The position numbers and the translations under genes are program-made. A stretch of 64,000 bases of DNA from NCBI GenBank assembly GCA_009914755.4, contig CP068257.2, forward strand, positions 896,001-960,000, read 5' to 3'. The DNA comes from the human T2T-CHM13v2.0 reference genome, Homo sapiens. Below, piece after piece: positions 1-60,460 of this stretch; within the stretch, counting starts at the first letter, position 1, and each line of letters begins with the position of its first letter. The notes beneath the pieces are model-generated. The model was not told the origin of the DNA, ran no database searches, and was given only the letters and a program-made list of their open reading frames with translations.

Positions 1-24
1 ATGTAACCCTTGTCTAGGATCTCC
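1..24. repeat. Tail of the upstream (truncated) HOR copy, landmark phase
   Basis: Bases 1-24 match the 24 bp that precede the landmark in every subsequent HOR copy. Confidence 0.8.
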
Positions 25-1998
25 CTAAATTAACTTTGTGACATAACCCTGTACTGATCATCCAGGTGATGGGGCTTTTGTCTAGGCTCTGCCTAAGGGG
101 GCATTGTGACATATTTCTGCATTGATCACCCAGGTGGCGAACTCTTCTCTTGGATCTGCCTATGGGGGCATTGTGACAAATCTCTGCACTGATCACCCAG
201 GTGATGTAACTGTTGTGTAACCTCTGCCTACAGGGGAATTGTGAGAGATCTCCCCACTGATCACCCAAGTGATGTAACCATTGTCTAGGCTTTGCGTACA
301 GGGGGCTTTGTGACATACCTTTGCACTGATCACCCAGGTGATGTAACACATCTAAGTTCGGCCTAAAGGAGCTTTGTGACATATCTCTGCACTGATCACT
401 TAGGTGATGTAACACTTTTATAAGCACTGCCTACAGGGAATTTTGACAAATCTCTGCACTGATCACCTAGGTGATGTAACGCTTGTCTACCCTCTGTCCA
501 ACGGCGCATTGTGAAATATCACTGCACTGATCACCCAGGTGATTCAACTCTTGACTAGGATCTGCCTACAGAGGTTATTGTGAAATATCTCTGCACTGAT
601 AAACTAGGTGGTGTAACCCTTATCCAAGCTCTGCCTACAGGGGCGTTTTCACATATCCCTGAAGTGATGACAAAGGTGATGTAACTCTTGCCTAGGCTTT
701 GCCTACAGGGGACTTTGGACATATATCTGCACTGATCACCCAGGTGATGCAACTCTTGCCTAGGCTTTGCCTACAGAGGACATTGTGACATATCGCTTCA
801 ATGATCACCCATGTGATGCAACTCTTGCCTAGGCTTTGCCTACAGGGGACATTGTGACATATCTCTGCACTGATCTCCCAGGTGCTGTAACTTTAGTCTA
901 GACTCTGGCTACACGGCATTGTGACATATCACTGCACTGATCAACCAGGTGATATAACTCTTGTCTAGGCTCTGCCTACAGGGGGCTTGTGACATATCTC
1001 TGCACTGATCACCCAGGTGATATAACTCTTCTCTAGGATCTGCCTACCGGGTGCTTTGTGACATATCCCTGCAATGATCACCCAGGTGATCTAACTCTGG
1101 TTTAAGCTCTGCCTAAAGGGGCATTGTGACAGATCTCTGCACTGATCACTCAGGTGATGAAACTATTGTCTAGGCTCTGCTTAAAGGGGCCTTGTCACAT
1201 ATCTCTGCAATGATCACCCAGGTGAAGTAACTCTTGTCTAGCCTCTGCTTTCACGGCATATTGTGACATATCTATGCACTGATCACCTTAGTGATGTAAC
1301 ACTTGTGTAGGCTCGGCCTACAGGGGAATATTGACATATCTCTGCACTGTTAACCGAGGTGATTTAACTCTTGTCTAGGCTGTGCCCACAGGGGGATTGA
1401 GACATATCTCTGCACTGATCCCGAGGTGATCCAACTGTTGCCTGGTCTCTGCCTACTGGGGACATTGTGACATATCTCTGCACTGATCTCCCAGGTGATG
1501 TAACTTTAGTCTAGGCTCTGGCTACACGGCATTGTGACATATCACTGCACTGATCACCCAGGTGATATAAATCTTGTCTAGGCTCTGCCTACAATGACTT
1601 TGTGACATATCTCTGCACTGATGACCCAGGTGATATAACTCTTCTCTAGGATCTGACCACAGGGTGCTTTGTGGCATTTCCCTGCAATGATCACCCAGGT
1701 GATATACCACTTGCCAACGCTCTGCCTACAGGGGCATTGCAATGTATCTCTGCACTGATCACCTAGGTCTTGTAACTCTTTTCTTCGATCTGCCCTCAGG
1801 GTGCTTTTTGACGTATCCCAGCAAGGATTACCCAGGTGATGTACCTCTCATCAAGGCTCTGCCTACAGGCACATTGCGATGTATCTCTGCACTGATCACC
1901 TAGGTCATGTAACTTTTGTCTAGGCTCTGCCTACGATGGCATTGTGGCATATCTCTGCACTAATCATCCAAGTGATGTAACCCTTGTCTAGGATCTGC
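25..1998. repeat. HOR copy 1, 29 monomers, 1974 bp (phase set arbitrarily at the landmark monomer ctaaattaac...)
   Basis: Landmark ctaaattaactttgtgacataaccctgtactgatcatcc at 25, next at 1999. I enumerated 29 distinct monomer types M1-M29 between them. Confidence 0.85.
954..1021. repeat. Representative consensus-like 68-bp monomer (M15 of HOR copy 1): ataactcttgtctaggctctgcctacagggggcttgtgacatatctctgcactgatcacccaggtgat
   Basis: This monomer is close to the majority base at most positions across the 29 monomer types. It contains TGATCA (Sau3AI/BclI) and the dyad ATCACC-CA-GGTGAT at 1006-1021. Confidence 0.8.
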
Positions 1999-3972
1999 CT
2001 AAATTAACTTTGTGACATAACCCTGTACTGATCATCCAGGTGATGGGGCTTTTGTCTAGGCTCTGCCTAAGGGGGCATTGTGACATATTTCTGCATTGAT
2101 CACCCAGGTGGCGAACTCTTCTCTTGGATCTGCCTATGGGGGCATTGTGACAAATCTCTGCACTGATCACCCAGGTGATGTAACTGTTGTGTAACCTCTG
2201 CCTACAGGGGAATTGTGAGAGATCTCGCCACTGATCACCCAAGTGATGTAACCATTGTCTAGGCTTTGTGTACAGGGGGCTTTGTGACATACCTTTGCAC
2301 TGATCACCCAGGTGATGTAACACATCTAAGTTCGGCCTAATGGAGCTTTGTGACATATCTCTGCACTGATCACTTAGGTGATGTAACACTTTTATAAGCA
2401 CTGCCTACAGGGAATTTTGACAAATCTCTGCACTGATCACCTAGGTGATGTAACGCTTGTCTACCCTCTGTCCAACGGGTCATTGTGAAATATCTCTGCA
2501 CTGATCACCCAGGTGATTCAACTCTTGACTAGGATCTGCCTACAGAGGTTATTGTGAAATATCTCTGCACTGATAAACTAGGTGGTGTAACCCTTATCCA
2601 AGCTCTGCCTACAGGGGCGTTTTCACATATCCCTGAAGTGATGACAAAGGTGATGTAACTCTTGCCTAGGCTTTGCCTACAGGGGACATTGGACATATAT
2701 CTGCACTGATCACCCAGGTGATGCAACTCTTGCCTAGGCTTTGCCTACAGGGGACATTGTGACATATCGCTTCAATGATCACCCGTGTGATGCAACTCTT
2801 GCCTAGGCTTTGCCTACAGGGGACATTGTGACATATCTCTGCACTGATCTCCCAGGTGCTGTAACTTTAGTCTAGACTCTGGCTACACGGCATTGTGACA
2901 TATCACTGCACTGATCAACCAGGTGATATAACTCTTGTCTAGGCTCTGCCTACAGGGGGCTTGTGACATAGCTCAGCACTGATCACCCAGATGATATAAC
3001 TCTTCTCTAGGATCTGCCTACAGGGTGCTTTGTGACATATCCCTGCAATGATCACCCAGGTGATCTAACTCTGGTTTAAGCTCTGCCTAAAGGGGCATTG
3101 TGACAGATCTCTGCACTGATCACTCAGGTGATGTAACTATTGTCTAGGCTCTGCTTAAAGGGGCCTTGTCACATATCTCTGCAATGATCACCCAGGTGAT
3201 GTAACTCTTGTCTAGCCTCTGCTTTCACGGCATATTGTGACATATCTATGCACTGATCACCTTAGTGATGTAACACTTGTGTAGGCTCGGCCTACAGGGG
3301 AATATTGACATATCTCTGCACTGTTAACCGAGGTGATTTAACTCTTGTCTAGGCTGTGCCCACAGGGGGATTGAGACATATCTCTGCACTGATCCCGAGG
3401 TGATCCAACTGTTGCCTGGTCTCTGCCTACTGGTGACATTGTGACATATCTCTGCACTGATCTCCCAGGTGATGTAACTTTAGTCTAGGCTCTGGCTACA
3501 CGGCATTGTGACATATCACTGCACTGATCACCCAGGTGATACAAATCTTGTCTAGGCTCTGCCTACAATGACTTTGTGACATATCTCTGCACTGATGACC
3601 CAGGTGATATAACTCTTCTCTAGGATCTGACCACAGGGTGCTTTGTGGCATTTCCCTGCAATGATCACCCAGGTGATATACCACTTGCCAACGCTCTGCC
3701 TACAGGGGCATTGCAATGTATCTCTGCACTGATCACCTAGGTCTTGTAACTCTTTTCTTCGATCTGCCCTCAGGGTGCTTTTTGACGTATCCCAGCAAGG
3801 ATTACCCAGGTGATGTACCTCTCATCAAGGCTCTGCCTACAGGCACATTGCGATGTATCTCTGCACTGATCACCTAGGTCATGTAACTTTTGTCTAGGCT
3901 CTGCCTACGATGGCATTGTGACATATCTCTGCACTAATCATCCAAGTGATGTAACACTTGTCTAGGATCTGC
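1999..3972. repeat. HOR copy 2, 1974 bp
   Basis: Landmark spacing 1999->3973 is 1974. Minus-strand pseudo-ORFs identical to those of copy 5. Confidence 0.85.
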
Positions 3973-5946
3973 CTAAATTAACTTTGTGACATAACCCTGT
4001 ACTGATCATCCAGGTGATGGGGCTTTTGTCTAGGCTCTGCCTAAGGGGGCATTGTGACATATTTCTGCATTGATCACCCAGGTGGCGAACTCTTCTCTTG
4101 GATCTGCCTATGGGGGCATTGTGACAAATCTCTGCACTGATCACCCAGGTGATGTAACTGTTGTGTAACCTCTGCCTACAGGGGAATTGTGAGAGATCTC
4201 GCCACTGATCACCCAAGTGATGTAACCATTGTCTAGGCTTTGGGTACAGGGGGCTTTGTGGCATACCTTTGCACTGATCACCCAGGTGATGTAACACATC
4301 TAAGTTCGGCCTAATGGAGCTTTGTGACATATCTCTGCACTGATCACTTAGGTGATGTAACACTTTTATAAGCACTGCCTACAGGGAATTTTGACAAATC
4401 TCTGCACTGATCACCTAGGTGATGTAACGTTTGTCTACCCACTGTCCAACGGGGCATTGTGAAATATCTCTGCACTGATCACCCAGGTGATTCAACTCTT
4501 GACTAGGATCTGCCTACAGAGGTTATTGTGAAATATCTCTGCACTGATAAACTAGGTGGTGTAACCCTTATCCAAGCTCTGCCTACAGGGGCGTTTTCAC
4601 ATATCCCTGAAGTGATGACAAAGGTGATGTAACTCTTGCCTAGGCTTTGCCTACAGGGGACAGTGGACATATATCTGCACTGATCACCCAGGTGATGCAA
4701 CTCTTGCCTAGGCTTTGCCTACAGGGGACATTGTGACATATCGCTTCAATGATCACCCGTGTGATGCAACTCTTGCCTAGGCTTTGCCTACAGGGGACAT
4801 TGTGACATATCTCTGCACTGATCTCCCAGGTGCTGTAACTTTAGTCTAGACACTGGCTACACGGCATTGTGACATATCACTGCACTGATCAACCAGGTGA
4901 TATAACTCTTGTCTAGGCTCTGCCTACAGGGGGCTTGTGACATATCTCTGCACTGATCACCCAGGTGATATAACTCTTCTCTAGGATCTGCCTACAGGGT
5001 GCTTTGTGACATATCCCTGCAATGATCACCCAGGTGATCTAACTCTGGTTTAAGCTCTGCCTAAAGGGGCATTGTGACAGATCTCTGCACTGATCACTCA
5101 GGTGATGTAACTATTGTCTAGGCTCTGCTTAAAGGGGCCTTGTCACATATCTCTGCAATGATCACCCAGGTGATGTAACTCTTGTCTAGCCTCTGCTTTC
5201 ACGGCATATTGTGACATATCTATGCACTGATCACCTTAGTGATGTAACACTTGTGTAGGCTCGGCCTACAGGGGAATATTGACATATCTCTGCACTGTTA
5301 ACCGAGGTGATTTAACTCTTGTCTAGGCTGTGCCCACAGGGGGATTGAGACATACCTCTGCACTGATCCCGAGGTGATCCAACTGTTGCCTGGTCTCTGC
5401 CTACTGGGGACATTGTGACATATCTCTGCACTGATCTCCCAGGTGCTGTAACTTTAGTCTAGGCTCTGGCTACACGGCATTGCGACATATCACTGCACTG
5501 ATCACCCAGGTGATATAAATCTTGTCTAGGCTCTGCCTAAAATGGCCTTGTGACATATCTCTGCACTGATCACCCAGGTGATGTAACTCTTCTCTAGGAT
5601 CTGACCACAGGGTGCTTTGTGGCATTGCCCTGCAATGATCACCCAGGTGGTATACCATTTGCCAACGCTCTGCCTACAGGGGCATTGCAATGTATCTCTG
5701 CACTGATCACCTAGGTCTTGTAACTTTTTTCTTCGATCTGCCCTCAGGGTGCTTTTTGACGTATCCCAGCAAGGATTACCCAGGTGATGTACGTCTCATC
5801 AAGGCTCTGCCTACAGGCACATTGCGATGTATCTCTGCACTGATCACCTAGGTCATGTAACTTTTGTCTAGGCTCTGCCTACGATGACATTGTGACATAT
5901 CTCTGCACTAATCATCCAAGTGATGTAACCCTTGTCTAGGATCTCC
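3973..5946. repeat. HOR copy 3, 1974 bp
   Basis: Landmark spacing 3973->5947 is 1974. Confidence 0.85.
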
Positions 5947-7920
5947 CTAAATTAACTTTGTGACATAACCCTGTACTGATCATCCAGGTGATGGGGCTTT
6001 TGTCTAGGCTCTGCCTAAGGGGGCATTGTGACATATTTCTGCATTGATCACCCAGGTGGCGAACTCTTCTCTTGGATCTGCCTATGGGGGCATTGTGACA
6101 AATCTCTGCACTGATCACCCAGGTGATGTAACTGTTGTGTAACCTCTGCCTACAGGGGAATTGTGAGAGATCTCGCCACTGATCACCCAAGTGATGTAAC
6201 CATTGTCTAGGCTTTGCGTACAGGGGGCTTTGTGACATACCTTTGCACTGATCACCCAGGTGATGTAACACATCTAAGTTCGGCCTAAAGGAGCTTTGTG
6301 ACATATCTCTGCACTGATCACTTAGGTGATGTAACACTTTTATAAGCACTGCCTACAGGGAATTTTGACAAATCTCTGCACTGATCACCTAGGTGATGTA
6401 ACTCTTGTCTACCCTCTGTCCAACGGCGCATTGTGAAATATCACTGCACTGATCACCCAGGTGATTCAACTCTTGACTAGGATCTGCCTACAGAGGTTAT
6501 TGTGAAATATCTCTGCACTGATAAACTAGGTGGTGTAACCCTTATCCAAGCTCTGCCTACAGGGGCGTTTTCACATATCCCTGAAGTGATGACAAAGGTG
6601 ATGTAACTCTTGCCTAGGCTTTGCCTACAGGGGACTTTGGACATATATCTGCACTGATCACCCAGGTGATGCAACTCTTGCCTAGGCTTTGCCTACAGAG
6701 GACATTGTGACATATCGCTTCAATGATCACCCATGTGATGCAACTCTTGCCTAGGCTTTGCCTACAGGGGACATTGTGACATATCTCTGCACTGATCTCC
6801 CAGGTGCTGTAACTTTAGTCTAGACTCTGGCTACACGGCATTGTGACATATCACTGCACTGATCAACCAGGTGATATAACTCTTGTCTAGGCTCTGCCTA
6901 CAGGGGGCTTGTGACATATCTCTGCACTGATCACCCAGGTGATATAACTCTTCTCTAGGATCTGCCTACCGGGTGCTTTGTGACATATCCCTGCAATGAT
7001 CACCCAGGTGATCTAACTCTGGTTTAAGCTCTGCCTAAAGGGGCATTGTGACAGATCTCTGCACTGATCACTCAGGTGATGAAACTATTGTCTAGGCTCT
7101 GCTTAAAGGGGCCTTGTCACATATCTCTGCAATGATCACCCAGGTGAAGTAACTCTTGTCTAGCCTCTGCTTTCACGGCATATTGTGACATATCTATGCA
7201 CTGATCACCTTAGTGATGTAACACTTGTGTAGGCTCGGCCTACAGGGGAATATTGACATATCTCTGCACTGTTAACCGAGGTGATTTAACTCTTGTCTAG
7301 GCTGTGCCCACAGGGGGATTGAGACATATCTCTGCACTGATCCCGAGGTGATCCAACTGTTGCCTGGTCTCTGCCTACTGGGGACATTGTGACATATCTC
7401 TGCACTGATCTCCCAGGTGATGTAACTTTAGTCTAGGCTCTGGCTACACGGCATTGTGACATATCACTGCACTGATCACCCAGGTGATATAAATCTTGTC
7501 TAGGCTCTGCCTACAATGACTTTGTGACATATCTCTGCACTGATGACCCAGGTGATATAACTCTTCTCTAGGATCTGACCACAGGGTGCTTTGTGGCATT
7601 TCCCTGCAATGATCACCCAGGTGATATACCACTTGCCAACGCTCTGCCTACAGGGGCATTGCAATGTATCTCTGCACTGATCACCTAGGTCTTGTAACTC
7701 TTTTCTTCGATCTGCCCTCAGGGTGCTTTTTGACGTATCCCAGCAAGGATTACCCAGGTGATGTACCTCTCATCAAGGCTCTGCCTACAGGCACATTGCG
7801 ATGTATCTCTGCACTGATCACCTAGGTCATGTAACTTTTGTCTAGGCTCTGCCTACGATGGCATTGTGGCATATCTCTGCACTAATCATCCAAGTGATGT
7901 AACCCTTGTCTAGGATCTGC
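5947..7920. repeat. HOR copy 4, 1974 bp (super-repeat counterpart of copy 1)
   Basis: Landmark spacing is 1974. The 137-aa pseudo-ORF differs from that of copy 1 at one residue. Confidence 0.85.
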
Positions 7921-9894
7921 CTAAATTAACTTTGTGACATAACCCTGTACTGATCATCCAGGTGATGGGGCTTTTGTCTAGGCTCTGCCTAAGGGGGCAT
8001 TGTGACATATTTCTGCATTGATCACCCAGGTGGCGAACTCTTCTCTTGGATCTGCCTATGGGGGCATTGTGACAAATCTCTGCACTGATCACCCAGGTGA
8101 TGTAACTGTTGTGTAACCTCTGCCTACAGGGGAATTGTGAGAGATCTCGCCACTGATCACCCAAGTGATGTAACCATTGTCTAGGCTTTGTGTACAGGGG
8201 GCTTTGTGACATACCTTTGCACTGATCACCCAGGTGATGTAACACATCTAAGTTCGGCCTAATGGAGCTTTGTGACATATCTCTGCACTGATCACTTAGG
8301 TGATGTAACACTTTTATAAGCACTGCCTACAGGGAATTTTGACAAATCTCTGCACTGATCACCTAGGTGATGTAACGCTTGTCTACCCTCTGTCCAACGG
8401 GTCATTGTGAAATATCTCTGCACTGATCACCCAGGTGATTCAACTCTTGACTAGGATCTGCCTACAGAGGTTATTGTGAAATATCTCTGCACTGATAAAC
8501 TAGGTGGTGTAACCCTTATCCAAGCTCTGCCTACAGGGGCGTTTTCACATATCCCTGAAGTGATGACAAAGGTGATGTAACTCTTGCCTAGGCTTTGCCT
8601 ACAGGGGACATTGGACATATATCTGCACTGATCACCCAGGTGATGCAACTCTTGCCTAGGCTTTGCCTACAGGGGACATTGTGACATATCGCTTCAATGA
8701 TCACCCGTGTGATGCAACTCTTGCCTAGGCTTTGCCTACAGGGGACATTGTGACATATCTCTGCACTGATCTCCCAGGTGCTGTAACTTTAGTCTAGACT
8801 CTGGCTACACGGCATTGTGACATATCACTGCACTGATCAACCAGGTGATATAACTCTTGTCTAGGCTCTGCCTACAGGGGGCTTGTGACATAGCTCAGCA
8901 CTGATCACCCAGATGATATAACTCTTCTCTAGGATCTGCCTACAGGGTGCTTTGTGACATATCCCTGCAATGATCACCCAGGTGATCTAACTCTGGTTTA
9001 AGCTCTGCCTAAAGGGGCATTGTGACAGATCTCTGCACTGATCACTCAGGTGATGTAACTATTGTCTAGGCTCTGCTTAAAGGGGCCTTGTCACATATCT
9101 CTGCAATGATCACCCAGGTGATGTAACTCTTGTCTAGCCTCTGCTTTCACGGCATATTGTGACATATCTATGCACTGATCACCTTAGTGATGTAACACTT
9201 GTGTAGGCTCGGCCTACAGGGGAATATTGACATATCTCTGCACTGTTAACCGAGGTGATTTAACTCTTGTCTAGGCTGTGCCCACAGGGGGATTGAGACA
9301 TATCTCTGCACTGATCCCGAGGTGATCCAACTGTTGCCTGGTCTCTGCCTACTGGTGACATTGTGACATATCTCTGCACTGATCTCCCAGGTGATGTAAC
9401 TTTAGTCTAGGCTCTGGCTACACGGCATTGTGACATATCACTGCACTGATCACCCAGGTGATACAAATCTTGTCTAGGCTCTGCCTACAATGACTTTGTG
9501 ACATATCTCTGCACTGATGACCCAGGTGATATAACTCTTCTCTAGGATCTGACCACAGGGTGCTTTGTGGCATTTCCCTGCAATGATCACCCAGGTGATA
9601 TACCACTTGCCAACGCTCTGCCTACAGGGGCATTGCAATGTATCTCTGCACTGATCACCTAGGTCTTGTAACTCTTTTCTTCGATCTGCCCTCAGGGTGC
9701 TTTTTGACGTATCCCAGCAAGGATTACCCAGGTGATGTACCTCTCATCAAGGCTCTGCCTACAGGCACATTGCGATGTATCTCTGCACTGATCACCTAGG
9801 TCATGTAACTTTTGTCTAGGCTCTGCCTACGATGGCATTGTGACATATCTCTGCACTAATCATCCAAGTGATGTAACACTTGTCTAGGATCTGC
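7921..9894. repeat. HOR copy 5, 1974 bp (counterpart of copy 2)
   Basis: Landmark spacing is 1974. Pseudo-ORFs at 7910, 8451 and 9418 are identical to those at 1988, 2529 and 3496. Confidence 0.85.
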
Positions 9895-15816: not shown

Positions 15817-17791
15817 CTAAATTAACTTTGTGACATAACCCTGTACTGATCATCCAGGTGATGGGGCTTTTGTCTAGGCTCTGCCTAAGGGGGCATTGTG
15901 ACATATTTCTGCATTGATCACCCAGGTGGCGAACTCTTCTCTTGGATCTGCCTATGGGGGCATTGTGACAAAACTCTGCACAGATCACCCAGGTGATGTA
16001 ACTGTTGTGTAACCTCTGCCTACAGGGGAATTGTGAGAGATCTCGCCACTGATCACCCAAGTGATGTAACCATTGTCTAGGCTTTGCGTACAGGGGGCTT
16101 TGTGACATACCTTTGCACTGATCACCCAGGTGATGTAACACATCTATGTTCGGCCTAAAGGAGCTTTGTGACATATCTCTGCACTGATCATTTAGGTGAT
16201 GTAACACTTTTATAAGCACTGCCTACAGGGAATTTTGACAAATCTCTGCACTGATCACCTAGGTGATGTAACGCTTGTCTACCCTCTGTCCAACGGGGCA
16301 TTGTGAAATATCTCTGCACTGATCACCCAGGCGATTCAATTCTTGACTAGGATCTGCCTACAGAGGTTATTGTGAAATATCTCTGCACTGATAAACTAGG
16401 TGGTGTAACCCTTATCCAAGCTCTGCCTACAGGGGCGTTTTCACATATCCCTGAAGTGATGACAAAGGTGATGTAACTGTTGCCTATGCTTTGCCTACAA
16501 GGGGACATTGGACATATATCTGCACTGATCACCCAGGTGATGCAACTCTTGCCTAGGCTTTGCCTACAGGGGACATTGTGACATATCGCTTCAATGATCA
16601 CCCATGTGATGCAACTCTTGCCTAGGCTTTGCCTACAGGGAACATTGTGACATATCTCTGCACTGATCTCCCAGGTGCTGTAACTTTAGTCTAGACTCTG
16701 GCTACACGGCATTGTGACATATCACTGCACTGATCAACCAGGTGATATAACTCTTGTCTAGGCTCTGCCTACAGGGGGCTTGTGACATATCTCTGCACTG
16801 ATCACCCAGGTGATATAACTCTTCTCTAGGATCTGCCTACAGGGTGCTTTGTGACATATCCCTGCAATGATCACCCAGGTGATCTAACTCTGGTTTAAGC
16901 TCTGCCTAAAGGGGCATTGTGACAGATCTCTGCACTGATCACTCAGGTGATGAAACTATTGTCTAGGCTCTGCTTAAAGGGGCCTTGTCACATATCTCTG
17001 CAATGATCACCCAGGTGATGTAACTCTTGTCTAGCCTCTGCTTCCACGGCATATTGTGACATATCTATGCACTGATCACCTTAGTGATGTAACACTTGTG
17101 TAGGCTCGGCCTACAGGGGAATATTGACATATCTCTGCACTGTTAACCGAGGTGATTTAACTCTTGTCTAGGCTGTGCCCACAGGGGGATTGAGACATAT
17201 CTCTGCACTGATCCCGAGGTGATCCAACTGTTCCCTGGTCTCTGCCTACTGGGGACATTGTGACATATCTCTGCACTGATCTCCCAGGTGCTGTAACTTT
17301 AGTCTAGGCTCTGGCTACACGGCATTGCGACATATCACTGCACTGATCACCCAGGTGATATAAATCTTGTCTAGGCTCTGCCTAAAATGGCCTTGTGACA
17401 TATCTCTGCACTGATCACCCAGGTGATATAACTCTTCTCTAGGATCTGACCACAGGGTGCTTTGTGGCATTTCCCTGCAATGATCACCCAGGTGATATAC
17501 CAATTGCCAACGCTCTGCCTACAGGGGCATTGCAATGTATCTCTGCACTGATCACCTAGGTCTTGTAACTCTTTTCTTCGATCTGCCCTCAGGGTGCTTT
17601 TTGACGTATCCCAGCAAGGATTACCCAGGTGATGTACCTCTCATCAAGGCTCTGCCTACAGGCACATTGCGATGTATCTCTGCACTGATCACCTAGGTCA
17701 TGTAACTTTTGTCTAGGCTCTGCCTACGATGGCATTGTGACATATCTCTGCACTAATCATCCAAGTGATGTAAACCTTGTCTACGATCTGC
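15817..17791. repeat. HOR copy 9, 1975 bp (breaks the 3-HOR pattern; distinct variants)
   Basis: Landmark spacing 15817->17792 is 1975. There is a 1-bp insertion and several private substitutions. Confidence 0.8.
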
Positions 17792-19151
17792 CTAAATTAA
17801 CTTTGTGACATAACCCTGTACTGATCATCCAGGTGATGGGGCTTTTGTCTAGGCTCTACCTAAGGGGGCATTGTGACATATTTCTGCATTGATCACCCAG
17901 GTGGCGAACTATTCTCTTGGATCTGCCTATGGGGGCATTGTGACAAATCTCTGCACTGATCACCCAGGTGATGTAACTGTTGTGTAACCTCTGCCTACAG
18001 GGGAATTGTGAGAGATCTCGCCACTGATCACCCAAGTGATGTAACAATTGTCTGGGCTTTGCGTACAGGGGGCTTTGTGACATACCTTTGCACTGATCAC
18101 CCAGGTGATGTAACACATCTATGTTCGGCCTAAAGGAGCTTTGTGACATATCTCTGCACTGATCACCCAGGTGATATAACTCTTCTCTAGGATCTGCCTA
18201 CAGGGTGCTTTGTGACATATCCCTGCAATGATCACCCAGGTGATCTAACTCTGGTTTAAGCTCTGCCTAAAGGGGCATTGTGACAGATCTCTGCACTGAT
18301 CACTCAGGTGATGAAACTATTGTCTAGGCTCTGCTTAACGGGGCCTTGTCACATATCTCTGCAATGATCACCCAGGTGATGTAACTCTTGTCTAGCCTCT
18401 GCTTCCACGGCATATTGTGACATATCATGCACTGATCACCTTAGTGATGTAACACTTGTGTAGGCTCGGCCTACAGGGGAATATTGACATATCTCTGCAC
18501 TGTTAACTGAGGTGATTTAACTCTTGTCTAGGCTGTGCCCACAGGGGGATTGAGACATATCTCTGCACTGATCCCGAGGTGATCCAACTGTTGCCTGGTC
18601 TCTGCCTACTGGTGACATTGTGACATATCTCTGCACTGATCTCCCAGGTGCTGTAACTTTAGTCTAGGCTTTGGCTACACGGCATTGTGACATATCACTG
18701 CACTGATCACCCAGGTGATATAAATCTTGTCTAGGCTCTGCCTAAAATGGCCTTGTGACATATCTCTGCACTGATCACCCAGGTGATATAACTCTTCTCT
18801 AGGATCTGACCGCAGGGTGCTTTGTGGCATTTCCCTGCAATGATCACCCAGGTGATATACCACTTGCCAACGCTCTGCCTACAGGGGCATTGCAATGTAT
18901 CTCTGCACTGATCACCTAGGTCTTGTAACTCTTTTCTTCGATCTGCCTTCAGGGTGCTTTTTGACGTATCCCAGCAAGGATTACCCAGGTGATGTACCTC
19001 TCATCAAGGGTCTGCCTACAGGCACATTGCCATGTATCTCTGCACTGATCACCTAGGTCATGTAACTTTTGTCTAGGCTCTGCCTACGATGGCATTGTGA
19101 CATATCTCTGCACTAATCATCCAAGTGATGTAAACCTTGTCTACGATCTGC
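17792..19151. repeat. HOR copy 10, 1360 bp: 20-monomer copy carrying a 9-monomer (~614 bp) deletion (M7-M15 lost)
   Basis: Landmark spacing is 1360. At about 18140-18180 monomer M6 (..ggagctttgtgacatatctctgcactgatcac) runs directly into M16 (ccaggtgatataactcttctctaggatctgcctacagggtgc). Separately, there is a 2-bp loss at about 18421. Confidence 0.85.
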
Positions 19152-44470: not shown

Positions 44471-46444
44471 CTAAATTAACTTTGTGACGTAACCCTGTAC
44501 TGATCATCCAGGTGATGGGGCTTTTGTCCAGGCTCTGCCTAAGGGGGCATTGTGACATATTTCTGCATTGATAACCCAGGTGGCGAACTCTTCTCTTGGA
44601 TCTGCCTATGGGGGCATTGTGACAAATCTCTGCACTGATCACCCAGGTGATGTAACTGTTGTGTAACCTCTGCCTACAGGGGAATTGTGAGAGATCTCGC
44701 CACTGATCACCCAAGTGATGTAACCATTGTCTACGCTTTGTGTACAGGGGGCTTTGTGACATACCTTTGCACTGATCACCCAGGTGATGTAACACATCTA
44801 TGTTCGACCTAAAGGAGCTTTGTGACATATCTCTGCACTGATCACTTAGGTGATGTAACACTTTTATAAACACTGCCTACAGGGAATTTTGACAAATCTC
44901 TGCACTGATAACCTAGGTGATGTAACGCTTGTCTACCCTCTGTCCAACGGGGCATTGTGAAATATCTCTGCACTGATCACCCAGGTGATTCAACTCTTGA
45001 CTAGGATCTGCCTACAGAGGTTATTGTGAAATATCTCTGCACTGATAAACTAGGTGGTGTAACACTTATCCAAGCTCTGCCTACAGGGGCGTTTTCACAT
45101 ATCCCTGAAGTGATGACAAAGGTGATGTAACTCTTGCCTAGGCTTTGCCTACAGAGGACATTGGATATATATCTGCACTGATCACCCAGGTGATGCAACT
45201 CTTGCCTTGGCTTTTCCTACAGGGGACATTGTGACATATCGCTTCAATGATCACCCATGTGATGCAACTCTTGCCTAGGCTTTGCCTACAGGGGACATTG
45301 TGACATATCTCTGCACTGATCTCCTAGGTGCTGTAACTTTAGTCTAGACTCTGGCTACACGGCATTGTGACATATCACTGCACTGATCAACCAAGTGATA
45401 TAACTCTTGTCTAGGCTCTGCCTACAGGGGGCTTGTGACATAGCTCAGCACTGATCACCCAGGTGATATAACTCTTCTCTAGGATCTGCCTACAGGGTGC
45501 TTTGTGACATATCCCTGCAATGATCACCCAGGTGATCTAACTCTGGTTTAAGCTCTGCCTAAAGGGGCATTGTGACAGATCTCTGCACTGATCACTCAGG
45601 TGATGTAACTATTGTCTAGGCTCTGCTTAAAGGGGCCTTGTCACATATCTCTGCAATGATCACCCAGGTGATGTAACTGTTGTCTAGCCTCTGCTTTCAC
45701 GGCATATTGTGACATATCTATGCACTGATCACCTTAGTGATGTAACACTTGTGCAGGCTCGGCCTACAGGGTAATATTGACATATCTCTGCACTGTTAAC
45801 CGAGGTGATTTAACTCTTGTCTAGGCTGTGCCCACAGGGGGATTGAGACATATCTCTGCACTGATCCCGAGGTGATCCAACTGTTGCCTGGTCTCTGCCT
45901 ACTGGGGACATTGTGACATATCTCTGCACTGATCTCCCAGGTGCTGTAACTTTAGTCTAGGCTCTGGCTACACGGCATTGTGACATATCACTGCACTGAT
46001 CACCCAGGTGATATAAATCTTGTCTAGGCTCTGCCTACAATGGCCTTGTGACATATCTCTGCACTGATCACCCAGGTGATATAACTCTTCTCTAGGATCT
46101 GACCACAGGGTGCTTTGTGACATTTCCCTGCAATGATCACCCAGGTGATATACCACTCGCCAAGGCTCTGCCTACAGGGGCATTGCAATGTATCTCTGCA
46201 CTGATCACCTAGGTCTTGTAACTCTTTTCTTTGATCTGCCCTCAGGGTGCTTTTTGACGTATCCCAGCAAGGATTACCCAGGTGATGTACCTCTCATCAA
46301 GGCTCTGCCTACAGGCACATTGCGATGTATCTCTGCACTGATCACCTAGGTCATGTAACTTTTGTCTAGGCTCTGCCTAGGATTGCATTGTGACATATCT
46401 CTGCACTAATCATCCAAGTGATGTAACACTTGTCTAGGATCTGC
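44471..46444. repeat. HOR copy 24, 1974 bp (type C'-like)
   Basis: Landmark spacing is 1974. Confidence 0.85.
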
Positions 46445-49030
46445 CTAAATCAACTTTGTGACATAACCCTGTACTGATCATCCAGGTGATGGGGCTTTTG
46501 TCTAGGCTCTGCCTAAGGGGGCATTGTGACATATTTCTGTATTGATCACCCAGGTGGCGAACTCTTCTCTTGGATCTGCCTATGGGGGCATTGTGACAAA
46601 TCTCTGCACTGATCACCCAGGTGATGTAACTCTTGTGTAACCTCTGCCTACAGGGGAATTGTGAGAGATCTCGCCACTGATCACCCAAGTGATGTAACCA
46701 TTGTCTAGGTTTTGCGTACAGGGGGCTTTTTGACATACCTTTGCACTGATCACCCAGGTGATGTAACACATCTAAGTTCGGACTAAAGGAGCTTTGTGAC
46801 ATATCTCTGCACTGATCACTTAGGTGATGTAACACTTTTATAAGCACTGCCTACAGGGAATTTTGAAAAATCTCTGCACTGATCACCTAGGTGATGTAAC
46901 GCTTGTCTACCCTCTGTCCAACGGGGCATTGTGAAATATCTCTGCACTGATCACCCAGGTGATTCAACTCTTGACTAGGATCTGCCTACAGAGGTTATTG
47001 TGAAATATCTCTGCACTGATAACTAGGTGGTGTAACACTTATCCAAGCTCTGCCTACAGGGGCGTTTTCACATATCCCTGAAGTGATGACAAAGGTGATG
47101 TAACTCTTGCCTAGGCTTTGCCTACAGGGGACATTGGATATATATCTGCACTGATCACCCAGGTGATGCAACTCTTGCCTAGGATTTTCCTACAGGGGAC
47201 ATGGTGACATATCGCTTCAATGATCACCCATGTGATGCAACTCTTGCCTAGGCTTTGCCTACAGGGGACATTGTGACATATCTCTGCACTGATCTCCCAG
47301 GTGCTGTAACTTTAGTCTAGACTCTGGCTACACGGCATTGTGACATATCACTGCACTGATCAACCAGGTGATATAACTCTTGTCTAGGCTCTGCCTACAG
47401 GGGGCTTGTGACATAGCTCAGCACTGATCACCCAGATGATATAACTCTTCTCTAGGATCTGCCTACAGGGTGCTTTGTGACATATCCCTGCAATGATCAC
47501 CCAGGTGATCTAACTCTGGTTTAAGCTCTGCCTAAAGGGGCATTGTGACAGATCTCTGCACTGATCACTCAGGTGATGTAACTATTGTCTAGGCTCTGCT
47601 TAAAGGGGCCTTGTCACATATCTCTGCACTGATCACCCAGGTGATGTAACTCTTGTCTAGCCTCTGCTTTCACGGCATATTGTGACATATCTATGCACTG
47701 ATCACCTTAGTGATGTAACAATTGTGTAGGCTCGGCCTACAGGGGAATATTGACATATCTCTGCACTGTTAACCAAGGTGATTTAACTCTTGTCTAGGCT
47801 GTGCCCACAGGGGGATTGAGACATATCTCTGCACTGATCCCGAGGTGATCCAAATGTTGCCTGGTCTCTGCCTACTGGGGACATTGTGACATATCTCTGC
47901 ACTTATCTCCCAGGTGCTGTAACTTTAGTCTAGGCTCTGGCTCCACGGCATTGTGACATATCACTGCACTGATCACCCAGGTGATATAACCCTTGTCTAG
48001 GCTCTGCCTACAGGGGGCTTGTGACATAGCTCTGCACTGATCACCCAGGTGATATAACTCTTCTCTAGGATCTGCCTACAGGGTGCTTTGTGACATATCC
48101 CTGCAATGATCACCCAGGTGATCTAACTCTGGTTTAAGCTCTGCCTAAAGGGGCATTGTGACAGATCTCTGCACTGATCACTCAGGTGATGTAACTATTG
48201 TCTAGGCTCTGCTTAAAGGGGCCTTGTCACATATCTCTGCAACGATCACCCAGGTGATGTAACTCTTGTCTAGCCTCTGCTTTCACGGCATATTGTGACA
48301 TATCTATGCACTGATCACCTTAGTGATGTAACACTTGTGCAGGCTCGGCCTACAGGGTAATATTGACATATCTCTGCACTGTTAACCGAGGTGATTTAAC
48401 TCTTGTCTAGGCTGTGCCCACAGGGGGATTGAGACATATCTCTGCACTGATCCCGAGGTGATGCAACTGTTGCCTGGTCTCTGCCTACTGGGGACATTGT
48501 GAAATATCTCTGCACTGATCTCCCAGGTGCTGTAACTTTAGTCTAGGCTCTGGCTACACGGCATTGTGACATATCACTGCACTGATCACCCAGGTGATAT
48601 AAATCTTGTCTAGGCTCTGCCTACAATGGCCTTGTGACATATCTCTGCACTGATCACCCAGGTGATATAACTCTTCTCTAGGATCTGACCACAGGGTGCT
48701 TTGTGACATTTCCCTGCAATGATCACTCAGGTGATATACCACTTGCCAAGGCTCTGCCTACAGGGGCATTGCAATGTATCTCTGCACTGATCACCTAGGT
48801 CTTGTAACTCTTTTCTTTGATCTGCCCTCAGGGTGCTTTTTGACGTATCCCAGCAAGGATTACCCAGGTGATGTACCTCTCATCAAAGCTCTGCCTACAG
48901 GCACATTGCGATGTATCTCTGCACTGATCACCTAGGTCATGTAACTTTTGTCTAGGCTCTGCCTACGATTGCATTGTGACATATCTCTGCACTAATCATC
49001 CAAGTGATGTAACCCTTGTCTAGGATCTGC
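46445..49030. repeat. HOR copy 25, 2586 bp: 38-monomer copy carrying a tandem duplication of 9 monomers (M15-M23, 614 bp)
   Basis: Landmark spacing 46445->49031 is 1974+612. Segment 47371-47984 is repeated as 47985-48598. At the junction M23 (..ctggctccacggcattgtgacatatcactgcactgatcacccaggtgatataa) is followed by M15 (cccttgtctaggctctgcctacagggggcttgtgacatagctct) instead of M24. There is also a 1-bp loss at about 46990. Confidence 0.85.
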
Positions 49031-56785: not shown

Positions 56786-58690
56786 CTAAATTAACTTTGT
56801 GACATAACCCTGTACTGATCATCCAGGTGATGGGGCTTTTGTCTAGGCTCTGCCTAAGGGGGCATTTTGACATATTTCTGCATTGATCACCCAGGTGGCG
56901 AACTCTTCTCTTGGATCTGCGTATGGGGGCATTGTGACAAATCTCTGCACTGATCACCCAGGTGATGTAACTGTTGTGTAACCTCTGCCTACAGGGGAAT
57001 TGTGAGAGATCTCGCCACTGATCACCCAAGTGATGTAACCATTGTCTAGGCTTTGCGTACAGGGGTCTTTGTGACATACCTTTGCACTGATCACCCAGGT
57101 GATGTAACACATCTATGTTCGGCCTAAAGGAGCTTTGTGACATACCTCTGCACTGATCACTTAGGTGATGTAACAGTTTTATAAGCACTGCCTACAGGGA
57201 ATTTTGACAAATCTCTGCACTGATCACCTAGGTGATGTAACGCTTGTGTACCCTCTGTCCAACGGGGCATTGTGAAATATCTCTGCACTGATCACCCAGG
57301 TGATTCAACTCTTGACTAGGATCTGCCTACAGAGGTTATTGTGAAATATCTCTGCACTGATAAACTAGGTGGTGTAACCCTTATCCAAGCTCTGCCTATA
57401 GGGGCGTTTTCACATATCCCTGAAGTGATGACAAAGATGATGTAACTCTTGCCTAGACTTTGCCTACAGGGGACATTGGACATATATCTGCACTGATCAC
57501 CCAGGTGATGCAACTCTTGCCTAGGCTTTGCCTACAGGGGACATTGTGACATATCTCTGCACTGATCTCCCAGGTGCTGTAACATTAGTCTAGACTCTGG
57601 CTACACGGCATTGTGACATATCACTGCACTGATCAACCAGGTGATATAACTCTTGTCTAGGCTCTGCCTACAGGGGTCTTGTGACATAGCTCTGCACTGA
57701 TCACCCAGGTGATATAACTCTTCTCTAGGATCTGCCTACAGGGTGCTTTGTGACATATCCCTGCAATGATCACCCAGGTGATCTAACTCTGGTTTAAGCT
57801 CTGCCTAAAGGGGCATTGTGACAGATCTCTGCACTGATCACTCAGGTGATGTAACTATTGTCTAGGCTCTGCTTAAAGGGGCCTTGTCACATATCTCTGC
57901 AATGATCACCCAGGTGATGTAACTCTTGTCTAGCCTCTGCTTTCACGGCATATAGTGACATATCTATGCACTGATCACCTTAGTGATGTAACACTTGTGT
58001 AGGCTCGGCCTACAGGGGAATATTGACATATCTCTGCACTGTTAACCGAGGTGATTTAACTCTTGTCTAGGCTGTGCCCACAGGGGGATTGAGACATATC
58101 TCTGCACTGATCCCGAGGTGATCCAACTGTTGCCTGGTCTCTGCCTACTGGGGACATTGTGACATATCTCTGCACTGATCTCCCAGGTGCTGTAACTTTA
58201 GTCTAGGCTCTGGCTACACGGCATTGTGACATATCACTGCACTGATCACCCAGGTGATATAAATCTTGTCTAGGCTCTGCCTACAATGGCCTTGTGACAT
58301 ATCTCTGCACTGATCACCCAGGTGATATAACTCTTCTCTAGGATCTGACCACAGGGTGCTTTGTGACATTTCCCTGCAATGATCACCCAGGTGATATACC
58401 ACTTGCCAAGGCTCTGCCTACAGGGGCATTGCAATGTATCTCTGCACTGATCACCTAGGTCTTGTAACTCTTTTCTAGGATCTGCCCACAGGGTGATTTT
58501 TGACGTATCCCAGCAAGGATTACCCAGGTGATGTACCTCTCATCAAGGCTCTGCCTACAGGCACATTGCGATGTATCTCTGCACTGATCACCTGGGTCAT
58601 GTAACTTTTGTCTAGGCTCTGCCTACGATGGCATTGTGACATATCTCTGCACTAATCATCCAAGTGATGTAAACAATGTCTAGGATCTGC
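56786..58690. repeat. HOR copy 30, 1905 bp: 28-monomer variant (M12 lost)
   Basis: Landmark spacing is 1905. Around 57480-57570 M11 is followed directly by M13. Confidence 0.85.
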
Positions 58691-60460
58691 CTAAATTAAC
58701 TTTGTGACATAATCCTGTACTGATCATCCAGGTGATGGGGCTTTTGTCTAGGCTCTGCCTAAGGGTGCATTGTGACATATTTCTGCATTGATCACCCAGG
58801 TGGCGAACTCTTCTCTTGGATCTGCCTATGGGGGCATTGTGAGAAATCTCTGCACTGATCACCCAGGTGATGTAACTGTTGTGTAACCTCTGCCTACAGG
58901 GGAATTGTGAGAGATCTCTCCACTGATCACCCAAGTGATGTTACCATTGTCTAGGCTTTGCGTACAGGGGGCTTTGTGACATACCTTTGCACTGATCACC
59001 CAGGTGATGTAACATATCTAAGTTCGGCCTAAAGGAGCTTTGTGACATATCTCTGCACTGATCACTTAGGTGATGTAACACTTTTATAAGCACTGCCTAC
59101 AGGGAATTTTGACAAATCTCTGCACTCATCACCTAGGTGATGTAACGCTTGTCTACCCTCTGTCCAACGGGGCATTGTGAAATATCTCTGCACTGATCAC
59201 CCTGGTGATTCAACTCTTGACTAGTATCTGCCTACAGAGGTTATTGTGAAATATCTCTGCATTGATAAACTAGGTGTTGTAACCCTTGTCCAAGCTCTGC
59301 CTATAGGGACGTTTTCACATATCCCTGAAGTGATGACAAAGGTGATGTAACTCTTGCCTAGGCTTTTCCTACAGGGGACATTGTGACATATCGCTTCAAT
59401 GATCACCCATGTGATGCAACTCTTGCCTAGGCTTTGCCTACAGGGGACATTGTGACATATCTCTCCACTGATCTCCCATGTGCTGTAACTTTAGTCTAGG
59501 CTCTGGCTACATGGCACTGTGACATATCACTGCACTGATCAACCAGGTGATATAACACTTCTATAGGCTCTGCCTACAGGGGGCTTGTGACATACCTCTG
59601 CACTGATCACACAGGTGATATAACTCCTCTCTAGGATCTACCTACTGGGTGCTTGGTGACATATCCCTGCACTGATCACCCAGGTGATCTAACTCTCGTC
59701 TGAGCTCTGCCTAAAGGGCATTGTGACAGATCTCTGCACTGATCACCCAGGTGATGTAACTCTTGTCTAGGCTCTCCTTGCAGGGCATATTGTGACATAT
59801 CTATGCACTGATCACCTTAGTGATGTAACACTTGTGTATGCTCGGCCTACAGGGAAATCTTGACATATCTCTGCACTGTTAACCGAGGTGATTTAACTCT
59901 TGCCTAGGCTGTGCCCACAGGGGGATTGAGACATATCTCCGCACTGATCCCGAGGTGATCCAACTCTTGCCTGGTCTCTGCCTACTGGGGACATTGTGAC
60001 ATATCTCTGCACTGATCAACCAGGTGATATAACTCTTGTCTAGGCTCTGCCTACAATGGTCTTGTGACATACCTCTGCACTGACCACCCAGGTGATATAA
60101 CTCTTCTCTAGGATCTGACCACAGGGTGCTTTGTGACATATCCCTGCAATGATCACCCAGGTGATATACCACTTGCCAAGGTTCTGCCTACTGGGGCATT
60201 GCAATGTATCTCTGCACTAATCACCTTGGTCTTGTAAATCTTTTCTAGAATCTGCCCACAGGGTGCTTTGTGACGTATCCCAGCAAGGATTACCCAGGTG
60301 ATGTACCTCTCATCAAGGCTCTGCCTACAGGCACATTGCGATGTATCTCTGCACTGATCATATAGGTCATGTAACTTTTGTCTAGGCTCTGCCTACGATA
60401 GCATTGTGACATATGTCTGCACTAATCATCCAAGTGATGTAACACTTGTCTAGGATCTGC
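58691..60460. repeat. HOR copy 31, 1770 bp: 26-monomer divergent variant (three separate single-monomer fusions: M11/M12, M17/M18, M22/M23)
   Basis: Landmark spacing is 1770 (1974 minus 3x68). There are three fusion junctions. About 59340-59410 is an M11/M12 hybrid. About 59690-59760 has M17 followed by M19. About 59940-60060 has an M22 ending in gatcaaccaggtgat followed by M24. Point substitutions are visibly denser than in copies 1-30. Confidence 0.8.

What the first reader, a model, noticed from the sequence alone, without database searches (positions are those of the whole stretch)
818..1703. Ancient internal duplication inside the HOR: monomers M13-M16 are paralogous to M22-M25 (lag 9); M2-M3 resemble M15-M16 (lag 13)
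M14 (887-953) and M23 (1500-1566) share almost identical text, apart from ctagactct vs ctaggctct and gatcaaccaggtgat vs gatcacccaggtgat. The shared text is gtaactttagtctag[a/g]ctctggctacacggcattgtgacatatcactgcactgatca[a/c]ccaggtgat. M16 (1022-1090) and M25 (1635-1703) share ataactcttctctaggatctg[c/a]c..gggtgctttgtg[a/g]cat[a/t]tccctgcaatgatcacccaggtgat. M13/M22 share the rare gatctcccaggtg ending. M6 and M15 share a near-identical 3' half. The 29-mer therefore contains a roughly 9-monomer ancestral duplication. This supplies the homology for the 9-monomer indels seen elsewhere in the window.
Basis: seen in the sequence. Interest (0 to 1): 0.55.

Follow-up and report, generated by a model that had tools for sequence, protein, structure and literature searches.

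The report
Copied four-monomer patch inside satellite repeat
Inside the 29-monomer repeat unit of a 68-bp (beta-type) satellite, a roughly 250-bp stretch occurs twice, 613 bp apart, because one stretch was copied over another; this is ordinary satellite evolution and explains some of the unit-length variants in the array.

Summary
The lag-9 resemblance is real. With window-wide consensus monomers, M14/M23 (97%), M15/M24 (94%), M16/M25 (94%) and M13/M22 (91%) are sister pairs against a 76% background. No permutation of monomer order (0/5000) gives such a run.

It is not a 9-monomer duplication. Only about 3.6 monomers (246 bp, M13 position 28 to the end of M16) are repeated, at a 613-bp offset. 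The other five lag-9 pairs sit at background. M13 is a mosaic: its 5' 46 nt equal M12 and its 3' 42 nt equal M22.

Older, diverged copies in related contigs keep M22-M25 in place. They carry unrelated monomers (X, a, and an M3-like b) where M14-M16 now sit. The best reading is therefore a two-junction, in-register overwrite, either a gene-conversion-like patch or two unequal exchanges, from M22-M25 onto M13-M16. This happened before the present array amplified.

The patch holds the longest out-of-register identity in the unit (57 nt). One 38-mer variant has its junction inside the patch. The 20-mer variant is in the same 613-bp register, but its junction (M6/M15) lies outside.

The lag-13 claim (M2-M3/M15-M16) is not supported as stated.

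This is a known kind of process, documented here in a probable human acrocentric beta-satellite repeat unit. Interest is low to moderate.

The parts
3..1976 (+). First complete 29-monomer repeat unit (1974 bp) of a 68-bp satellite. The window holds 33 units, the last one cut off by the window end.
   Evidence: TRF finds period 68 over 1-64000. The best self-identity lag is 1974 bp.
845..1090 (+). Block A, inferred to be the secondary copy: M13 position 28 to its end, plus M14, M15 and M16 (246 bp).
   Evidence: In each unit copy it differs from block B by 11-19 mismatches out of 246, at an exact 613-bp offset. The consensus blocks differ at 10 sites.
1458..1703 (+). Block B, inferred to be the original and the donor: M22 position 28 to its end, plus M23, M24 and M25 (246 bp).
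   Evidence: The M21-M22-M23-M24-M25-M26 order is kept in older diverged copies L011 and L018, and in the L003/L004 flank, with rank-1 matches.
818..886 (+). M13, a mosaic monomer holding the left junction. Positions 1-46 are identical to M12 (749-794). Positions 28-69 are identical to the M22 consensus. Over positions 1-27, M13 and M22 differ at 6 sites, which is background level.
   Evidence: A version with an ordinary 3' end (GATCACCCAGGTGAT, here called 'M13o') sits at an array edge in L003 and L004.
1076..1095 (+). Right boundary of the homology, at the M16 to M17 transition. The matching point in block B is M25 to M26, at 1689-1708. Identity stops after the conserved ATCACCCAGGTGAT.
   Evidence: M17 begins CTAACTCTGGTTTAAG and M26 begins ATACCACTTGCCAA. 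M17/M26 identity is 74%.
1091..1457 (+). The spacer between the two blocks: M17-M21 plus the 5' 27 nt of M22. It has no lag-9 paralogue.
   Evidence: Lag-9 identities for M17-M21 are 71-77%, equal to background.
46423..49008 (+). A 38-monomer variant unit, M1-M23 followed by M15-M29. The exchange interval is 47977-47989, between the M23-type C at position 58 and the M15-type C at position 5.
   Evidence: Both M15 copies in this unit share a private G at position 44, so the event is recent.
17770..19129 (+). A 20-monomer variant unit, M1-M6 followed by M16-M29. The junction monomer at 18110-18175 is the M6 5' part joined to an M15-type 3' end (CACCCAGG).
   Evidence: The M6 and M15 3' halves share 26 nt and are in register at the same 613-bp shift.
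58669..60438 (+). A divergent 26-monomer subtype that recurs at 62344-64000. It carries both blocks, with fewer differences between them: M25 has A40 and A44, M24 has C5, and M14 has G16.
   Evidence: It differs from other copies by 45-59 sites per kb.

Best explanation
The window is an array of a 29-monomer repeat unit of a 68-bp satellite, most likely human-type beta satellite from an acrocentric short arm.

Inferred history: before the present array was amplified, about 246 bp (the 3' two-thirds of M22 plus M23, M24 and M25) was copied, in monomer phase, onto the stretch 613 bp (9 monomers) upstream. It replaced the 3' end of an M12-like monomer ('M13o') and three unrelated monomers (X, a, and an M3-like b). 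The copy has two junctions. One lies in a 19-nt tract shared by M12, M13 and M22 (M13 positions 28-46). The other lies in the conserved ATCACCCAGGTGAT at the monomer end. It is therefore a non-reciprocal patch: one gene-conversion event between misaligned repeats, or equivalently two successive unequal exchanges in the same 9-monomer register. It is not one tandem duplication. Amplification of the resulting unit then fixed it.

Shown: the patch is now a 94-96% identical direct repeat that holds the longest out-of-register identity in the unit. It has served as substrate for at least one +9-monomer exchange, the 38-mer.

Inferred: the donor direction, the replacement, and the recombination mechanism.
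For: - Extent and boundaries. Homology runs from M13 position 28 to the end of M16. The consensus blocks differ at 10 of 246 sites, and flanking pairs are at background.
- Mosaic M13. It has 0 differences from M12 over positions 1-46 and 6 over positions 47-69. It has 6 differences from M22 over positions 1-27 and 0 over positions 28-69.
- Older copies in related contigs. These came from a 37-mer scan. One of them (L011) lies next to a DUX4-like pseudogene (E=6e-67 to human DUX4).
  - L011 reads M2' M3' M17 M18 ... M22 M23 M24 M25 M26.
  - L018 reads M11 M13o X M19' M20 M21 M22 M23 M24 M25 M26.
  - The L003/L004 array edge reads M11 (100%), M12 (99%), M13o, X, a, b (M3-like), M17', ... M21', M22', M23''.
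  - Block B is collinear with rank-1 matches. The monomer after M13o has 0 of 7 M14-specific states. The monomer before M17 has 0-1 of 7 M16-specific states.
- X-type monomers are absent from the window.
- GATCTCCCAGGTGC is an M22 feature in all the older copies and occurs elsewhere only in M13.
- Older position-24 and position-25 monomers are 91-96% identical to the window's M15 and M16. So M15 and M16 preserve the ancestral donor sequence.
- Consequence. The longest exact out-of-register tract in the unit is 57 nt, at shift 613. The 38-mer junction lies inside the block.
Against: - The outgroup copies come from short-read metagenome assemblies of host DNA, which can be chimeric in repeats. 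Some contigs show block A carrying block-B states, which may be assembly collapse.
- The M17' call in the L003/L004 flank is weak (85% identity, 2 of 7 specific states). The claim that the number of monomers was preserved, meaning replacement rather than insertion, is therefore only moderately supported.
- L018's unit lacks M14-M18 altogether. This could be read as an ancestral shorter unit.
- Substitutions since the copy are lopsided: 8 on M24 and M25, 0 on M15 and M16, and 2 on M14. A simple clock does not predict this.
- A single conversion cannot be told apart from two sequential crossovers.
Confidence: 0.6

Rival explanations
1. One unequal crossover made a tandem duplication of nine monomers (for example M13-M21 giving M22-M30), or the unit encloses 1.4 copies of an ancestral 9-monomer unit. 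Five of the nine pairs later diverged or were replaced.
For: The offset is exactly nine monomers and the lengths are in phase. Lags of 613 and 1361 bp are among the strongest self-identity lags. Contig L002 reads M17-M23 then M15-M22, which looks like a 9-monomer period.
Against: Five of the nine lag-9 pairs are at background (71-78%) while four are at 91-97%. Nothing explains why divergence would be that uneven within one event. There are two homology boundaries instead of one hybrid junction. Older copies have M3-like or X-type monomers, not M14-M16 types, upstream of M17. L002 is a 2.6-kb short-read contig and has the same junction as the recent 38-mer.
Confidence: 0.08
2. The unit grew by insertion rather than overwrite. 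A shorter ancestral unit of about 25 monomers, like the one in L018 (M13o X M19 ...), gained a copy of M22(3')-M25 together with M17-M18. Block A therefore added length instead of replacing X-a-b.
For: The L018, L009 and L020 units lack M14-M18 and have M13o-X directly before an M19-like monomer. Evidence that the flank holds three monomers between M13o and M17' rests on a weak M17' assignment.
Against: Older edge copies (L011, L019, L002, L021) already have M17-M18-M19 adjacent, preceded by an M3-like monomer. The absence of M17-M18 in L018 therefore looks like a deletion. The L003/L004 flank keeps X, a and b, then an M17-like monomer, in the same count as M14-M16.
Confidence: 0.2
3. The resemblance is not due to a copying event. 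It reflects chance, or convergence of consensus-like monomers.
For: M15 is consensus-like, and M15/M24 share only one derived state in the window.
Against: M14/M23 share 8 derived states, 3 of them exclusive to the pair. M16/M25 share 8, and M13/M22 share 2 exclusive states. Four consecutive pairs lie at one lag with identical length order. No permutation out of 5000 reaches the score.
Confidence: 0.02

Closest known systems
Beta satellite (Sau3A family) repeat unit of human acrocentric short arms. The SRF paper (PMC10760446) reports a 1906-bp unit of 28 monomers at 77% mean identity. It is tandem 39 times on CHM13 chr22:1.53-1.61 Mb and 31 times on chr15:0.58-0.64 Mb.
   Same: The monomer is 68 bp and GC is 0.47. 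GATC occurs in 85% of monomers. Mean identity between monomers is 77%. The window contains 28-monomer variants of 1905-1906 bp alongside the 1974-bp 29-mer.
   Different: I could not compare the sequences themselves. The dominant unit here is the 29-mer, not the 28-mer. No held paper describes the internal paralogy.
'Cascading' alpha-satellite repeat units, in which a monomer type occurs more than once per unit and creates sub-periods (Gluncic et al. 2024, PMC11050224).
   Same: M14 and M23 are as alike (97%) as copies of the same monomer in different units (about 98%). This gives extra periodicities of 9 and 20 monomers: lags of 613 and 1361 bp.
   Different: The satellite family and monomer size differ (68 bp against 171 bp). 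Only about 4 of 29 monomers are repeated, at 91-97%, so only M14/M23 would clearly pass a same-type threshold.
Evolution of satellite repeat units by unequal crossing-over and gene conversion. This is the classical model for alpha satellite, for example variant unit lengths arising by exchange between similar monomers. I cite it from general knowledge, not from a paper read here.
   Same: The length variants here (28-, 20- and 38-monomer units) have hybrid-monomer junctions inside the longest shared tracts.
   Different: The founding event has two junctions and preserves register. That fits a conversion patch better than the single-junction crossover usually invoked.

Membership tests
Beta satellite (Sau3A family) | Tandem monomer of about 68 bp | tested here: met
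   TRF finds period 68 over the whole window. The 940 monomers are 65-69 bp long. The definition is taken from PMC8125562 and bioRxiv 2021.07.12.452052.
Beta satellite (Sau3A family) | Relatively G+C-rich (about 47-50%), with a Sau3A (GATC) site in nearly every monomer | tested here: met
   GC is 0.463-0.474 in all 2-kb windows. GATC occurs in 85% of monomers, and three monomer types lack it. The criterion comes from bioRxiv 589531.
Beta satellite (Sau3A family) | Sequence identity to a reference beta-satellite consensus (Repbase BSR or Waye & Willard clones) | not testable with these tools
   No reference sequence is available. Waye & Willard 1989 is not held. Sequence-string searches of the paper library found nothing relevant.
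Beta satellite (Sau3A family) | Primate genomic context, with linkage to D4Z4/DUX4-type repeats and acrocentric short arms | tested here: inconclusive
   Related contig L011 carries monomers of this unit next to a DUX4-like pseudogene (E=6e-67 to human DUX4, PDB entry 6e8c). The window itself has no flanking DNA. The chromosomal origin is inferred only from the match to the SRF description.
Repeat unit containing repeated monomer types ('cascading' type) | [quoted passage not shown] | tested here: met
   M14/M23 are 97% identical, against about 98% between unit copies. Lags of 613 bp and 1361 bp are prominent. The other three pairs (91-94%) are borderline.
Single tandem duplication of nine monomers by unequal crossover | All nine consecutive lag-9 pairs paralogous at similar divergence, with one hybrid junction | tested here: not met
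   Only 3.6 monomers are similar, and the other five pairs are at 71-78%, equal to background. There are two boundaries.
Gene-conversion-type patch (non-reciprocal, in-register replacement) | Two junctions in shared sequence, donor unchanged, recipient's earlier sequence still present in copies that escaped the event, and length preserved | tested here: inconclusive
   Two junctions and an intact donor context are shown. Earlier occupants (M13o, X, a, b) are seen at an array edge and in a relative's unit. These rest on short-read contigs, and the length-preservation point rests on a weak M17' call.

The most novel reading that the evidence does not exclude
The 246-bp patch does more than record a past event. 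It sets a preferred misalignment frame (613 bp) for recombination in these arrays. In that case ±9-monomer units (20- and 38-mers) arise recurrently, even when the exchange resolves outside the patch, as at the M6/M15 junction. The states at the 10 block-diagnostic sites could then serve as markers for tracing sequence exchange among the five human acrocentric short arms.
Probability: 0.25. Interest if true: 0.4.

Novelty: new member of a known kind. Interest (0 to 1): 0.25.

Why it matters
The finding gives a concrete, datable example of how a long satellite repeat unit is assembled and then varies. An internal conversion-like patch creates the longest out-of-register homology in the unit. 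The length variants seen in the same 64 kb fall on the two longest internal identity tracts: ±9 monomers at the patch, and -1 monomer at M11-M13. For work on acrocentric short arms, the 10 sites that distinguish the two blocks could be useful markers of exchange between arrays. So could the ancestral 'M13o-X-a-b' edge sequence. The finding does not reveal a new kind of element or mechanism.

Tried and rejected
- The repeat finder on one unit copy returned only generic monomer families and did not isolate the block. I used direct alignment instead.
- Classifying monomers against the first unit copy mislabelled M24 as M15 in copy 11, which suggested an M15-to-M24 conversion. Reclassifying against window consensus showed an ordinary M24 with one change. 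I dropped the idea.
- Permuting summed shared-derived scores along diagonals was dominated by a few strong pairs and was uninformative. A run-length statistic was used instead.
- Deeper lag-13 paralogy: a run of seven consecutive pairs (M3-M9 with M16-M22) shares derived states. P is 0.003 at a threshold chosen after the fact and 0.02-0.07 at the two nearest other thresholds, falling to 0.5 at the strictest. This is suggestive only, and it does not include M2/M15.
- Ongoing conversion between the blocks within the window: diagnostic sites are almost fixed. The few shared states are retained ancestral polymorphisms, such as M25 A40. There is no evidence for conversion.
- Literature searches for a printed beta-satellite consensus, or for a described 28- or 29-mer internal structure, found only the SRF note. 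Waye & Willard 1989 is not held.
- Contigs reading '13 23 24 16 17' (L004, L010, L012, L017) were not used as evidence of further conversion, because short-read collapse of the two blocks would look the same.

Full report
**What the window is.** The whole 64 kb is one tandem array of a 68-bp monomer (TRF) with uniform GC of 0.46-0.47. The strongest self-identity lag is 1974 bp. A lag of 613 bp is the best lag that is not a multiple of 1974, and it beats 68 bp.

A wraparound alignment to the monomer consensus cuts the window into 940 monomers of 65-69 bp. The array has 33 repeat units. Most are 29 monomers long. There are twelve 28-mers, one 20-mer, one 38-mer and two copies of a divergent 26-mer.

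The features fit beta satellite as the literature defines it:
- a 68-bp monomer;
- GC of 47%;
- GATC in 85% of monomers;
- organisation into a higher-order repeat unit.

The SRF paper describes a 1906-bp, 28-monomer beta-satellite unit with 77% mean monomer identity on CHM13 chr22 and chr15 short arms (PMC10760446). This matches the window's 1905-1906-bp 28-mers and its 77% monomer identity. I could not compare the sequences themselves, so this identification is probable, not proven.

**Checking the observation.** In the first unit the identities are M14/M23 97%, M16/M25 93%, M13/M22 90% and M15/M24 90%. The background is 77% with sd 5. The two blocks have the same order of monomer lengths: 69, 67, 68, 69.

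I then built consensus monomers from all units. The four pairs rise to 97.1, 94.2, 91.3 and 94.2%. All four are sister pairs in an NJ tree, with bootstrap 99.6%, 78%, 66% and 43%. None of 5000 permutations of monomer order gives four consecutive pairs at one lag with so high a summed identity.

Shared derived states agree with this:
- M14/M23 share eight, three of them exclusive to the pair.
- M16/M25 share eight.
- M13/M22 share two exclusive ones: T in GATCTCCC, and the GCT end.

From the first unit alone, only M14/M23 and M16/M25 are strict sisters. M24 carries private mutations there, and M13 groups with M12.

The lag-13 claim fails as stated. M2/M15 and M3/M16 are essentially never sisters. 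M15 is simply consensus-like, being the best hit of many monomers.

**What is actually duplicated.** Aligning M11-M18 against M20-M27 shows that homology begins inside M13 and ends at the end of M16.
- Over M13 positions 1-27, M13 and M22 differ at 6 sites, which is background.
- From position 28 to the end of M16, the consensus blocks differ at only 10 of 246 sites. Individual units show 11-19 differences, always at an exact 613-bp offset.
- M12/M21 (78%) and M17/M26 (74%) are at background, as are M18/M27, M19/M28, M20/M29 and M21/M1 (71-77%).

Nine monomers is therefore the spacing, not the size. About 3.6 monomers are repeated.

M13 is a mosaic. Its first 46 nt are identical to M12, and its last 42 nt are identical to M22. 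The 19 nt in between are shared by all three monomers. A single unequal crossover would give nine equally similar pairs and one hybrid junction. Here there are two homology boundaries.

**Evidence from related sequences.** A scan of metagenome contigs with the 37-mer shared by M14 and M23 returned 21 contigs. They are evidently host DNA. One of them (L011) carries a DUX4-like pseudogene next to the satellite, with E=6e-67 to human DUX4.

Many contigs hold the same unit. Several also hold older, more diverged copies at array edges, or a relative's unit:
- **L011:** M2' M3' M17 M18 M19 M20 M21 M22 M23 M24 M25 M26 Z M27 M28 M29 M1 M2 M3. M17-M26 match at 87-97% and are collinear with M17-M26: eight are rank-1 matches, and positions 24 and 25 match M15/M16 slightly better than M24/M25.
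- **L018:** M11 M13o X M19' M20 M21 M22 M23 M24 M25 M26.
- **L003 and L004** (two different samples), at the array edge: M11 (100%), M12 (99%), then 'M13o'. This is M13 with an ordinary GATCACCCAGGTGAT end instead of the M22-type end. Then follow X (GCAACTCTTCTCTATGCTCTGCC...), a, b (M3-like), an M17-like monomer, and on to M21', M22' and M23''.

In all three contexts block B sits in its place, and its M23-type states are already present. The monomer after M13o has 0 of 7 M14-specific states. The monomer before M17 has 0-1 of 7 M16-specific states. Four contigs agree that an M3-like monomer preceded M17. X-type monomers do not occur anywhere in the window.

The monomers at positions 24 and 25 in the old copies are closer to the window's M15 and M16 (91-96%) than to its M24 and M25 (87-90%). 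So eight of the ten consensus differences arose on M24/M25 and two on M14.

**Interpretation.** The most economical reading is as follows. M22(3')-M25 is the resident sequence. It was copied in register onto M13o(3')-X-a-b, 613 bp upstream. This was either a conversion-type patch between misaligned repeats, or two successive unequal exchanges in the same register: for example a 20-mer intermediate M1-M13h-M23-M29, later rejoined to M17.

The event predates the split of the two unit subtypes in the window, since both carry both blocks. Its divergence (4% on consensus) is similar to the divergence between subtypes (4.5-5.9%).

These steps are inferred, and the caveats are real:
- The outgroup contigs are short-read assemblies.
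- The M17-like call in the flank is weak (85%).
- L018's shorter unit could instead be read as ancestral, which would mean insertion rather than replacement.
- The 8:0 asymmetry of later changes is unexplained.

**Consequences for array variation.** In the consensus unit, the longest exact tracts between the unit and a shifted copy of itself are these:
- 57 nt at a shift of 613 bp (M13 position 28 to M14 position 15, against M22-M23);
- 51 and 35 nt at shifts of 68-69 bp (M11-M13).

These are exactly the two classes of length variant present.
- The 38-mer (46423-49008) has its exchange point in the 13 nt between M23 position 58 and M15 position 5, inside the patch. Its two M15 copies share a private variant, so the event is recent.
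- The 28-mers lack M12, or carry an M11/M12 hybrid, with junctions in the shared tracts.
- The 20-mer (17770-19129) is different. Its junction is an M6/M15 hybrid in a 26-nt tract that is merely consensus-like. However, it is in the same 613-bp register.

For the other it is only register-consistent.

**Comparison with what is known, and novelty.** Internal repeats of monomer types within a repeat unit, with the sub-periods they create, have been described for alpha satellite as 'cascading' units (PMC11050224). Unequal exchange and conversion are the standard model of satellite evolution. I found no description of this structure for the beta-satellite 28/29-mer.

This is a new example of a known kind of process, with a reasonably well supported reconstruction of the ancestral state. 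It is of modest interest, mainly as a marker system and as a worked example for acrocentric short-arm satellites.

Noticed in passing
window 3-15800; also units 18-22 (about 32810-42540): There are super-repeats of three repeat units. Units 1/4/7, 2/5 and 3/6 differ by 0-1 sites per kb, while neighbouring units differ by 10-17 per kb. Units 18/21 and 19/22 differ by 3 per kb. This indicates recent amplification of 5.9-kb blocks.
   Followed up: partly
window 58669-60438 and 62344-64000: A divergent 26-monomer subtype lacks M11 and M18 and has an M22/M23 fusion. It differs from all other units by 45-59 sites per kb, but its two copies differ by only 11 per kb. It alternates with a 28-mer.
   Followed up: partly
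window, twelve 28-monomer units (e.g. 19130-21034, 34784-36689): There are two classes of one-monomer deletion in the M11-M12-M13 triplet. Nine units go from M11 directly to M13. Three go from M10 to an M11/M12 hybrid. The junctions lie in the 35-51-nt tracts these monomers share.
   Followed up: yes
window 1635-1908 (M25-M28): An older lag-2 paralogy is present. M26/M28 are 87% identical with five exclusive shared states, and M25/M27 are 81%. In older relatives (L011, L018) an extra monomer Z sits between M26 and M27, which suggests a former three-monomer period.
   Followed up: partly
window 139-612 versus 1022-1499 (M3-M9 versus M16-M22): A weak collinear lag-13 signal appears as seven consecutive pairs sharing rare derived states, for example G43 in M4/M17, A7 in M5/M18 and AAT..TTGACA in M7/M20. 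P is 0.003 at a threshold chosen after the fact and 0.02-0.07 at the two nearest other thresholds, falling to 0.5 at the strictest. Old edge copies place an M3-like monomer directly before M17. This may be a trace of an older unit of about 16 monomers. It remains unresolved.
   Followed up: partly
L011 2700-4700 (locus + strand): A DUX4-like double-homeobox pseudogene, with in-frame stops, lies next to diverged monomers of this satellite. It matches human DUX4 at E=6e-67. This is the known D4Z4/beta-satellite type of cluster.
   Followed up: partly
L004, L010, L012, L017 (block A positions): These contigs read M13 followed by M23-type, M24-type and M16-type monomers. That is block A carrying block-B states. 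It could be further conversion in other arrays, or short-read assembly collapse of the two blocks.
   Followed up: no
L016 1-6700 and L017 1-2300 (oriented as): The array edge begins at an M25-type monomer directly next to several kb of non-satellite DNA, which I did not identify.
   Followed up: no
window M24/M25 versus M15/M16 (e.g. 1567-1703 versus 954-1090): Change since the copying event is lopsided. Judged against older copies, eight consensus differences are derived on M24/M25 and none on M15/M16. This is unexplained. The donor may have been a different unit variant.
   Followed up: partly
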